Below, one piece after another: positions 37-440 of a stretch of DNA of 440 bases. Both the position numbers and the translations under genes were made by a program. The number at the start of each line of letters is the position of its first letter. Within the stretch, counting starts at the first letter, position 1. The notes beneath the pieces were generated by a model. The model was not told the DNA's origin. It searched no databases and saw nothing but the letters and a program-made list of their open reading frames with translations. Source of the stretch: Escherichia coli (lineage in GTDB: Bacteria > Pseudomonadota > Gammaproteobacteria > Enterobacterales > Enterobacteriaceae); assembly GCF_003334385.1 (NCBI RefSeq), contig NZ_QOWN01000182.1. One strand, given 5' to 3'.

Positions 37-440
37 ATGACATTTAAACACTACGATGTGGTCAGGGCGGCGTCGCCGTCAGACCTTGCGGAGCGACTGA
101 CACAAAAACTGAAGGAGGGGTGGCAGCCATTTGGCAGCCCTGTCGCCATCACGCCTTATACCCTGATGCAGGCCATTGCGGCGGAAGGTGATGTCACCAC
201 ACCTGTGGTGGTGAAGCCGTCGGATGGAGAAGGCACAGTTATCAGCACCACCAGCGAACCGGAGTATTACTTTGTTGTTGTTCTGGCGGGGCAGTCAAAC
301 TCAATGTCTTTTGGTGAAGGGCTGCCGCTGCCGGAGACATATGACCGTCCGGACCCGCGTATTAAACAGCTGGCGCGTCGCAGTACGGTGACGCCGGGTG
401 GTGCCGCCTGTAAATATAACGACATCATTCCGGCAGACCA
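37..440 (+). CDS. Prophage-type sialate (9-O-acetyl-neuraminate) O-acetylesterase, NanS-p-like; 5' portion only (DUF1737-like N-terminal module plus start of SGNH/SASA esterase domain), 3' end outside window
   Basis: Seen in sequence: frame +1 is open from ATG 37 to the window edge (134 codons), an in-frame TGA at 4-6 closes it upstream, and no ATG/GTG/TTG lies in frame between 7 and 36, so ATG 37 is the only possible start. Strong SD 4 nt upstream. Product call rests on recognition of the N-terminal sequence and the LAGQSNSMSFG block typical of sialate O-acetylesterase family SGNH hydrolases; this is recall, not a database hit. Confidence 0.75.
   Translation, partial: MTFKHYDVVRAASPSDLAERLTQKLKEGWQPFGSPVAITPYTLMQAIAAEGDVTTPVVVKPSDGEGTVISTTSEPEYYFVVVLAGQSNSMSFGEGLPLPETYDRPDPRIKQLARRSTVTPGGAACKYNDIIPAD
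248..255 (-). other. Chi octamer (5'-GCTGGTGG-3' on the minus strand; CCACCAGC on the plus strand)
   Basis: Seen in sequence: exact 8/8 match to the E. coli RecBCD Chi sequence on the minus strand. It only acts as a recombination hotspot in a host whose RecBCD recognises this octamer, and host identity is inferred, not shown. Confidence 0.45.

What the first reader, a model, noticed from the sequence alone, without database searches (positions are those of the whole stretch)
205..264. Low-complexity Thr/Ser/Pro/Glu-rich linker between the two modules
Residues ~57-76 (VVVKPSDGEGTVISTTSEPE) are compositionally biased and lie between the N-terminal module and the first beta-strand-like stretch of the esterase domain (YYFVVVLAGQSN). 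This is consistent with a flexible inter-domain linker.
Basis: inference. Interest (0 to 1): 0.2.

Follow-up and report, generated by a model that had tools for sequence, protein, structure and literature searches.

The report
Flexible linker in prophage NanS-p esterase
The flagged stretch is an ordinary flexible, fast-evolving spacer of about 22 amino acids joining the small N-terminal DUF1737 domain to the sialic-acid esterase domain of a well-known E. coli prophage enzyme (NanS-p).

Summary
The window is the 5' end of a nanS-p gene in a lambda-like E. coli prophage, 100% identical to strain NCTC9112. The ORF starts at nt 37.

The full 659-aa protein has three domains: DUF1737 (3-50), a SASA/NanS esterase (about 74-394) and a lectin-like DUF6645 domain (about 445-653).

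Four results support a flexible linker:
- AlphaFold2 gives coil with pLDDT below 50 for residues 52-71, between two confidently folded domains.
- Column entropy is 3-4 times higher here than in the flanking domains.
- dN/dS is about 0.5-0.6 here against about 0.12-0.13 in the flanks.
- Homologues carry unrelated linkers of about 10-32 residues, including a natural 14-codon deletion.

T/S/P/E content is 55% against 25% for the whole protein. Only the two interdomain linkers reach that level. The segment is not low-complexity by a SEG-type entropy threshold.

The true linker is about residues 52-73. E74-P75-E76 already belong to the esterase domain.

A 2026 phi24B cryo-EM preprint reports that DUF1737 binds capsid hexons and proposes cleavage in this linker. 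That suggests a role as a capsid-to-enzyme tether. The proposed SSP motif is absent here and is not conserved across paralogues.

The feature is already known and of low interest.

The parts
27..39 (+). Ribosome-binding site GGGAGG (27-32) and ATG start codon (37-39) of nanS-p
   Evidence: Read directly from the sequence. The RefSeq CDS starts at this ATG (L001 6037).
37..189 (+). DUF1737 domain, residues 1-51. The homologous domain in phage phi24B gp84 is reported to be the capsid-hexon-binding domain.
   Evidence: Pfam PF08410 matches residues 3-50, E = 2.3e-15. AF2 predicts E3-11, H14-26, E30-38, E42-51. dN/dS is 0.13. The capsid-binding role comes from bioRxiv 10.64898/2026.04.10.717836.
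190..255 (+). Interdomain linker 1, residues 52-73 (DVTTPVVVKPSDGEGTVISTTS): predicted disordered, T/S/P/E/G/V-rich, weakly constrained
   Evidence: pLDDT is below 50 for 52-71 and the segment is coil. Column entropy peaks at residues 60-66. dN/dS is 0.51. H-19B has a 42-nt in-frame deletion here and AU6Stx1 an unrelated sequence. DNA similarity to a group of Stx1 phages ends at nt 194.
205..264 (+). The finding as given, residues 57-76. It covers the C-terminal three quarters of the linker plus the first three residues (EPE) of the esterase domain.
256..440 (+). Start of the SASA/SGNH (NanS-like) esterase domain, residues 74-134, including first strand YYFVVVLAG and block I motif GQSN. The domain runs on beyond the window.
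   Evidence: The phmmer alignment to 3PT5 NanS starts at residue 74, E = 3e-114. Pfam SASA covers 81-276. The AF2 model matches 3PT5 with TM 0.96 and rmsd 1.5 A. dN/dS is 0.12.

Best explanation
Residues about 52-73 (nt 190-255, overlapping the finding at 205-264) form an intrinsically flexible spacer under weak selective constraint. The spacer joins the N-terminal DUF1737 domain to the NanS-like sialate O-acetylesterase domain of a prophage NanS-p protein.

Shown here: the segment is predicted to lack structure, it is compositionally biased, it evolves 4-5 times faster at non-synonymous sites than its flanks, and it tolerates large indels and complete sequence replacement.

Inferred: it works as a tether. 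In the homologue gp84 of phage phi24B, DUF1737 is reported to form a hexamer plugged into capsid hexons. The linker would let the esterase and lectin modules project from, and move freely above, that anchor. About 22 residues give at most about 75 A of reach. An exposed flexible segment would also be protease-labile, and it would offer a permissive place for recombination to swap modules.
For: Identity and architecture:
- The window matches the E. coli NCTC9112 prophage gene at 100%.
- The gene lies between antiterminator Q and the holin/lysozyme genes.
- Domains are DUF1737 3-50, SASA 81-276 and DUF6645 508-616.
- 3PT5 NanS aligns from residue 74, and 6YP6 aligns to 445-653.

Disorder:
- AF2 mean pLDDT is 86.8, with below-50 segments only at 1-3, 52-71, 408-440 and 657-659. 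Residues 52-76 are coil.
- The folded parts superpose on 3PT5 (TMt 0.96) and 6YP6 (TMt 0.90), so the model is credible.

Variability:
- Column entropy is 0.87 bits, against 0.22 and 0.31 in the flanks, over 55 distinct N-termini.
- dN/dS is 0.51-0.70 in the linker, against 0.13 and 0.12 in the flanks, at comparable dS.
- Linker length and sequence differ widely in 50%-identity representatives. Examples are GDVVVSGATEPEWYY (about 10 residues), SISSPEEPGNRPTTSAPSVAPE, and about 32 residues in P0243.
- H-19B carries a 42-nt in-frame deletion.

Composition: T/S/P/E is 55% against 25%, a level reached only in the two linkers.

Tether role: the phi24B cryo-EM preprint reports a DUF1737 hexamer on capsid hexons, with density ending at Gly54/Ser57. 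Those residues correspond to G51/T54 here (register).
Against: - Within the commonest DUF1737 subtype the linker length is nearly fixed at the same value as here. The N-terminal part DVTTPVVV and the C-terminal part TVISTTSEPE are fairly conserved. This may reflect recent common ancestry, or some constraint that a purely passive spacer would not need.
- dN/dS is still below 1, so the segment is not neutral.
- The tether-to-capsid role is transferred from a T=9 podovirus. This prophage is lambda-like, with E-type major capsid protein, D-type decoration protein, gpJ and a tape measure protein, and its portal gene is frameshifted. Capsid binding by this allele is therefore unverified.
- Low pLDDT is a proxy for disorder, not a measurement.
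Confidence: 0.85

Rival explanations
1. The linker is a programmed (auto)proteolytic processing site. After virion release the esterase is cut from the capsid-bound DUF1737 anchor at a specific motif just after the domain, as proposed for phi24B gp84 (SISSP after Gly54). This adds to the flexible-linker reading rather than excluding it.
For: - The preprint reports a 70-kDa gp84 band in fresh virions and a 35-kDa esterase-containing band after storage. It sees no density beyond residue 54-57.
- The position equivalent to SISSP is DVTTP here. An [ST][ST]P triplet right after the conserved E-G is present in several subtypes: DVTTP, SISSP, DISSP, DVSTP.
- TTP also occurs in this protein's second linker (GGTTPVSPGTP).
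Against: - The motif is not conserved. H-19B/P0123-type alleles read EGDVVVSGATEP, P0170 reads EGDPQVGPSSEP and P0121 reads QGEYLPTASTNDPE.
- Paralogues with the same linker 1 have second linkers without TTP or SSP. P0076-type proteins share the SISSP linker 1 but lack SSP in linker 2.
- Similarity between the two linkers of this protein is only marginal (shuffle P about 0.02-0.05).
- Cleavage in linker 1 was inferred from missing density, not mapped. Slow cleavage over six months at 4 C fits non-specific proteolysis of an exposed loop equally well.
Confidence: 0.2
2. The segment matters mainly as a recombination joint. It is a permissive junction at which prophage recombination exchanges the DUF1737 module and the esterase/lectin modules, and its own sequence has no specific role. 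This too is compatible with the flexible-linker reading.
For: - DNA similarity of the window to many phage alleles stops abruptly at nt 194, the first codons of the linker, or at nt 128.
- AU6Stx1 has conserved flanks and an unalignable linker.
- The same linker 1 is found with at least seven unrelated second linkers and C-terminal groups.
- P0191 joins DUF1737 (80% identical over residues 1-66) through a linker directly to the lectin-like domain, with no esterase.
Against: - Linker 1 co-segregates with the DUF1737 subtype in most proteins, so the commoner breakpoints lie elsewhere: at nt 128 inside DUF1737 and in linker 2.
- Breakpoints in a divergent stretch are also what megablast reports when a segment has simply diverged. 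They are not proof of recombination.
Confidence: 0.3
3. The segment is an ordered, integral part of DUF1737 or of the esterase domain, for example an extra beta-strand formed by VVV or TVIS.
For: - It contains beta-prone residues (VVV, TVI).
- PHROG family 2036, a 67-position profile, aligns through residue 61.
- The last residues, EPE, are conserved and align to ordered 3PT5 residues.
Against: - AF2 gives coil and pLDDT below 50 for 52-71.
- Pfam DUF1737 ends at residue 50 and the 3PT5 alignment starts at 74.
- Fourteen of the residues are deleted in natural alleles.
- The phi24B map resolves the domain only to residue 54-57.
Confidence: 0.05
4. The stretch hides an internal translation start. 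An SD-like AAGGTGAT (185-192) is followed by three in-frame GTG codons (205-213), which would give a DUF1737-less esterase.
For: The motif and the codons are present in the sequence.
Against: - The spacing of 12 nt from the SD-like motif to the first GTG is longer than the usual 5-9 nt.
- The motif is simply the codons of the conserved E-G-D.
- The phi24B data show a full-length protein that is later cleaved.
Confidence: 0.03

Closest known systems
NanS-p / vb_24B_21 (gp84) of Stx phages phi24B and 933W. Published sources: Saile et al. 2016; Franke et al. 2020 J Struct Biol, PDB 6YP6; Pascal et al. 2023, PMC10462455; phi24B cryo-EM preprint 10.64898/2026.04.10.717836.
   Same: - The three-domain architecture DUF1737 - linker - SASA esterase - linker - lectin-like jelly roll is the same.
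- The genomic position, downstream of Q and upstream of the lysis genes, is the same.
- The linker sits at the same place, directly after the conserved E-G that ends DUF1737.
   Different: - Overall identity to the 933W/phi24B type is about 60%.
- The second half of DUF1737 differs.
- Linker 1 is unrelated in sequence: DVTTPVVVKPSDGEGTVISTTS here against SISSPEEPGNRPTTSAPSVA there. The SSP motif highlighted in the preprint is absent.
- The host prophage is lambda-like rather than a phi24B-type podovirus, and no stx operon is annotated upstream.
Chromosomal NanS (YjhS) of E. coli, PDB 3PT5
   Same: The esterase domain is homologous: E = 3e-114 and 54% identity in the structural alignment, from residue 74 onward, including the YY-hydrophobic strand and GQSN.
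   Different: NanS has no DUF1737 domain, no linker 1 and no C-terminal lectin domain. The segment under study has no counterpart in it.
Generic Pro/Thr/Ser-rich interdomain linkers of modular carbohydrate-active enzymes, such as catalytic domain-CBM linkers (general knowledge; Boraston et al. 2004 as cited in PMC8065619)
   Same: It is short, enriched in P/T/S/E/G, variable in length and sequence, and predicted disordered. It connects a targeting module to a catalytic module.
   Different: It is much less repetitive than classic PT-box linkers and does not pass a SEG-type low-complexity threshold. It also contains a hydrophobic VVV/TVI component.

Membership tests
NanS-p (prophage sialate O-acetylesterase) | N-terminal DUF1737 (PF08410) domain | tested here: met
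   Pfam match to residues 3-50, E = 2.3e-15. AF2 predicts a beta-alpha-beta-beta fold.
NanS-p (prophage sialate O-acetylesterase) | Central SASA/SGNH esterase domain homologous to NanS, with the GQSN block | tested here: met
   3PT5 match at E = 3e-114 over residues 74-394. PF03629 covers 81-276. Foldseek gives TMt 0.96. GQSN is at residues 85-88.
NanS-p (prophage sialate O-acetylesterase) | C-terminal lectin-like jelly-roll domain (DUF6645 / 6YP6) | tested here: met
   6YP6 match at E = 3.7e-48 over residues 445-653. PF20350 covers 508-616. Foldseek gives TMt 0.90.
NanS-p (prophage sialate O-acetylesterase) | Encoded in the late region of a lambdoid prophage, between antiterminator Q and the lysis cassette | tested here: met
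   Annotation of NZ_LR134079.1 around the gene.
NanS-p (prophage sialate O-acetylesterase) | Neu5,9Ac2 O-acetylesterase activity | not testable with these tools
   Activity was shown for other alleles in the literature summarised in PMC8065619, not for this one.
Flexible (disordered) interdomain linker | No stable predicted structure between two independently folded domains | tested here: met
   pLDDT is below 50 for residues 52-71 and residues 52-76 are coil. In the blockwise means the esterase domain averages above 90 in nearly every block from residue 81, while DUF1737 (residues 11-50) averages only 69-84.
Flexible (disordered) interdomain linker | Higher sequence and length variability than the flanking domains | tested here: met
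   Column entropy 0.87 against 0.22 and 0.31. dN/dS 0.51-0.59 against 0.13 and 0.12. Length about 10-32 residues in homologues.
Flexible (disordered) interdomain linker | Compositional bias towards small, polar residues and Pro | tested here: met
   T/S/P/E is 55% against 25%, P = 0.004, in the top 2.2% of windows.
Low-complexity region (SEG definition) | 12-residue window entropy at or below 2.2 bits | tested here: not met
   The minimum 12-mer entropy in residues 50-80 is 2.42 bits. No window in the whole protein falls to 2.2 or below.
Autoproteolytic processing site proposed for phi24B gp84 | SSP-containing motif shared by both interdomain linkers | tested here: not met
   There is no SSP in either linker of this protein; both have TTP instead. 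The motifs do not co-vary across paralogues.
Autoproteolytic processing site proposed for phi24B gp84 | Cleavage between DUF1737 and the esterase domain | not testable with these tools
   Only inferred in the preprint, from missing cryo-EM density and a 35-kDa band.

The most novel reading that the evidence does not exclude
The linker is a timed release element rather than a passive spacer. NanS-p is first displayed on the capsid through its DUF1737 anchor. It is then shed by cleavage just after the conserved E-G-x-x-[ST]-[ST]-P, which frees a soluble esterase-lectin enzyme into mucus. Linker length and sequence variants (10 to 32 residues) would tune display geometry or release rate for different capsid types, including lambda-like T=7 heads such as the one encoded by this prophage.
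Probability: 0.12. Interest if true: 0.5.

Novelty: already known. Interest (0 to 1): 0.12.

Why it matters
By itself it matters little. It is a routine interdomain linker in a protein family whose three-domain layout is published. The exact protein is already in RefSeq, annotated as 'SASA family carbohydrate esterase'.

It has some practical value. The analysis fixes the domain boundaries for this allele: DUF1737 1-51, linker 52-73, esterase from residue 74. These are the boundaries to use when designing constructs.

It also shows that the SSP 'autoprocessing motif' suggested for phi24B gp84 is not conserved across NanS-p paralogues. That argues against a sequence-specific cleavage signal.

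If the capsid-display model holds generally, this linker is the tether that sets how far a mucin-modifying enzyme projects from Stx-phage and related capsids.

Tried and rejected
- **First translation attempt.** Translation from nt 38 was out of frame. The start is nt 37.
- **Rfam.** A scan of the window at E up to 1 found no RNA family.
- **DNA repeats.** The window has only short 10-12-nt chance-level pairs, and nothing centred on 205-264.
- **Solved structures.** A PDB sequence search with residues 1-76 returned only chance hits at E of 0.14 or above. No solved structure of DUF1737 or the linker is in that copy.
- **Shared motif or duplication between the two linkers.** Both contain TTPV...KP[SQ]DG. 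Local alignment is only marginally better than shuffles (DNA P = 0.022, protein P = 0.053). The motif does not co-vary across paralogues. Rejected as a meaningful repeat.
- **First dN/dS run.** It was contaminated by the frameshifted H-19B record and an unalignable AU6Stx1 linker. It was redone with 8 alignable alleles.
- **tRNA scan upstream of the gene.** Stx phages often carry tRNAs there; none were found.
- **PHROGs.** Only 'unknown function' families matched.
- **Internal translation start (SD-like AAGGTGAT plus GTG codons).** Considered, judged unlikely on spacing, and not testable here.

Full report
**1. What is in the window**

The 440-nt window has one long ORF on the + strand. It starts at ATG 37-39, four bases after GGGAGG at 27-32, and runs off the 3' end. 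My first translation, from nt 38, was out of frame.

Codons 57-76 occupy nt 205-264 and read VVVKPSDGEGTVISTTSEPE. They are followed by YYFVVVLAGQSN. The other-frame and antisense ORFs are short (22-55 aa) and overlap this ORF.

**2. Identity of the gene**

- The window is 100% identical to E. coli NCTC9112 (NZ_LR134079.1). Related copies occur in 1,175 of 5,426 complete E. coli genomes, with a median of 5 places per genome, and in 339 phage records, mostly Stx-converting phages.
- The annotated CDS is a 659-aa 'SASA family carbohydrate esterase'. It lies between antiterminator Q and the holin/lysozyme/Rz genes of a prophage.
- That prophage has lambda-type morphogenesis genes: major capsid protein, head decoration protein, tape measure protein and gpJ. 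Its portal gene is frameshifted.
- Pfam finds DUF1737 (3-50, E = 2.3e-15), SASA (81-276) and DUF6645 (508-616).
- PDB sequence search aligns residues 74-394 to NanS/YjhS (3PT5, E = 3e-114). It aligns residues 445-653 to the C-terminal domain of phi24B NanS-p (6YP6, E = 3.7e-48).
- This is therefore a NanS-p, the prophage-borne sialate O-acetylesterase family reviewed in PMC8065619 and PMC10462455.

**3. Is the segment compositionally unusual?**

- T+S+P+E account for 11 of 20 residues, against 25.3% in the whole protein (binomial P = 0.004).
- Only 2.2% of 20-residue windows reach that level. They fall in just two places, starting at residues 54-61 and 402-408. Those are the two interdomain linkers.
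- The segment is not low-complexity by a SEG-type criterion. Its 12-mer entropy is at least 2.42 bits, against a trigger of 2.2. Its 20-mer entropy lies only at the 12th percentile of the protein.
- The bias is real but mild.

**4. Structure**

I ran AlphaFold2 on the full protein with a 64-sequence alignment. Mean pLDDT is 86.8. Segments with pLDDT below 50 occur only at 1-3, 52-71, 408-440 and 657-659.

- DSSP on the model gives E3-11, H14-26, E30-38 and E42-51 for DUF1737. This matches the 'one helix and three antiparallel strands' described for the cryo-EM structure of the phi24B homologue.
- Residues 52-76 are coil.
- The first esterase strand is 77-85.
- The folded parts superpose on 3PT5 (TM on target 0.96, rmsd 1.5 A) and on 6YP6 (TM 0.90). 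The model is therefore reliable where it is confident.

The boundaries shift slightly. The disordered stretch begins at D52, directly after the conserved E50-G51. It ends at about S73. E74-P75-E76 align to ordered 3PT5 residues, and P75 and E76 are invariant among paralogues.

**5. Variability among paralogues and homologues**

- Among 55 distinct N-termini from 111 full-length homologues, mean column entropy is 0.87 bits for 57-76 and 0.99 for 57-68. It is 0.22 for DUF1737 and 0.31 for esterase residues 77-150. The most variable columns are 60 and 63-66.
- Pooled Nei-Gojobori dN/dS was computed over the window and seven phage alleles.

| Region | dN/dS |
|---|---|
| DUF1737 | 0.13 |
| Residues 52-73 | 0.51 |
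| Residues 57-76 | 0.59 |
| Residues 58-74 | 0.70 |
| Esterase residues 77-134 | 0.12 |

  dS is comparable across regions, 0.31-0.54. This indicates relaxed purifying selection and gives no evidence of positive selection. The sample is small and the pairwise comparisons are not independent.
- In 50%-identity representatives the linker differs completely in length and sequence:
  - EGDVVVSGATEPEWYY (about 10 residues)
  - EGDPQVGPSSEPDWFY
  - QGEYLPTASTNDPEYYY
  - SDNAPVRGETSGGASGGSGSQVVKSDPSRYY
  - a linker of about 32 residues in P0243
  - the 933W/phi24B type, EGSISSPEEPGNRPTTSAPSVAPEYY
- At the DNA level, H-19B has a clean 42-nt in-frame deletion within the linker. AU6Stx1 has conserved flanks around an unalignable linker.
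- Similarity to groups of phage alleles ends at nt 194, the start of the linker, or at nt 128.
- Within the commonest DUF1737 subtype, however, the linker has nearly always the same length as here. DVTTPVVV and TVISTTSEPE are fairly constant. Linker 1 is much less variable than linker 2, which ranges from 37 to 70 residues and takes many unrelated forms.

**6. How it most likely works**

Established by the analyses above: this is a flexible, weakly constrained spacer between two independently folding domains.

Inferred: its role is that of a tether. A 2026 preprint on phi24B (10.64898/2026.04.10.717836) reports the following:
- gp84, a NanS-p, is a structural capsid-decoration protein.
- Its DUF1737 domain forms a hexamer plugged into the central hexon of each T=9 facet.
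- Density stops at Gly54/Ser57. In the register these correspond to G51/T54 here.
- The 70-kDa protein of fresh virions becomes a 35-kDa esterase fragment on storage.

On that model the linker lets the esterase and lectin modules extend from the capsid anchor. About 22 residues give at most roughly 75 A if fully extended (my estimate). The linker is also the exposed place where the enzyme is clipped off.

Capsid binding has not been shown for this allele. Its prophage encodes a lambda-like head, not a phi24B-like one.

**7. Rivals**

(a) Programmed autoproteolysis at a specific motif.
- The preprint points to SSP motifs in both linkers.
- Here both linkers contain TTP instead.
- Neither motif is conserved. 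Short-linker alleles lack it. Paralogues sharing linker 1 carry second linkers without it.
- Similarity between the two linkers of this protein is marginal (P about 0.02-0.05).
- I rate specific processing at about 0.2. Non-specific clipping of an exposed loop explains the same observations.

(b) A recombination joint.
- Module shuffling around the linkers is real. One example is P0191, which has DUF1737 (80% identical) joined through a linker to the lectin-like domain (37% identical), with no esterase.
- Linker 1 mostly travels with its DUF1737 subtype.
- This reading complements the main explanation rather than replacing it.

(c) An ordered part of a domain. Disfavoured.

(d) An internal translation start, with SD-like AAGGTGAT at 185-192 and GTG codons at 205-213. 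The spacing is poor and there is no support.

**8. Comparison with what is known, and novelty**

The three-domain layout with two interdomain linkers is published for NanS-p (Franke et al. 2020, as cited; PMC10462455). This exact protein is in RefSeq. The finding is a correct but ordinary annotation detail, and I classify it as already known.

The small additions from this analysis are:
- precise domain boundaries for this allele;
- quantitative evidence of relaxed constraint;
- the natural range of linker lengths;
- the observation that the SSP motif proposed as a processing signal is not conserved across the family.

**9. Negative results**

- Rfam found no match.
- No meaningful DNA repeats were found.
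- No solved structure covers residues 1-76.
- No tRNA genes lie upstream.
- PHROGs returned only 'unknown function' families.

Noticed in passing
L001:7228-7356 (protein residues about 398-440, outside the window): The second interdomain linker, between esterase and lectin domains, is much longer and far more variable than linker 1. It is 37-70 residues long in many unrelated P/T/S/E/G-rich forms among paralogues that share the same linker 1. AF2 pLDDT is below 50 for residues 408-440.
   Followed up: partly
P0191 (294 aa, 50%-identity cluster representative): This is a natural esterase-less architecture. DUF1737 (80% identical to residues 1-66 here) is joined by a Gly/Ser/Asp-rich linker directly to a lectin-like DUF6645-type domain (37% identical to residues 422-653). 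It shows the capsid-anchor and lectin modules can be combined without the enzyme.
   Followed up: partly
L004 (NZ_LR134079.1 4560000-4587200) and L001: The prophage carrying this nanS-p is lambda-like, with E-type major capsid protein, D-type head decoration protein, tape measure protein and gpJ. It is not a phi24B-type podovirus. Its portal gene is annotated as frameshifted. No stx operon or tRNA genes lie between Q and nanS-p. Whether DUF1737 can decorate a T=7 lambda-type head is an open question.
   Followed up: partly
window 1-128 and 1-194: There are sharp mosaic boundaries at the DNA level. About 200 Stx2a-phage alleles (933W type) match the window at 91-93% only up to nt 128, in the middle of DUF1737. 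A group of Stx1a phages, including H-19B, matches only up to nt 194, the first codons of the linker.
   Followed up: partly
L003 (AF034975.3, phage H-19B), aligned to window about nt 127: The old H-19B GenBank record has a 1-nt gap relative to all other alleles inside DUF1737 (CAG-CGTTT). This frameshifts the nanS-p reading frame, and the gene is not annotated there. It is probably a sequencing error.
   Followed up: no
window 185-213: A Shine-Dalgarno-like AAGGTGAT (185-192, the codons of E-G-D) is followed 12 nt later by three consecutive in-frame GTG codons (V57-V59, 205-213). I judged an internal start unlikely on spacing. It was not tested.
   Followed up: no
window 267-428, minus strand; L011 271-444: The 53-aa antisense ORF inside the esterase coding region corresponds to an annotated 'hypothetical protein' (ORF b71, Stx1_p146) in NC_004913.3. 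It is almost certainly a spurious overlapping call.
   Followed up: no
window 386-388 (codon 117): The nearest database cluster representative, P0001, is listed as 100% identical but differs from the window's protein at residue 117 (M instead of T). P0003 and most paralogues have T.
   Followed up: no
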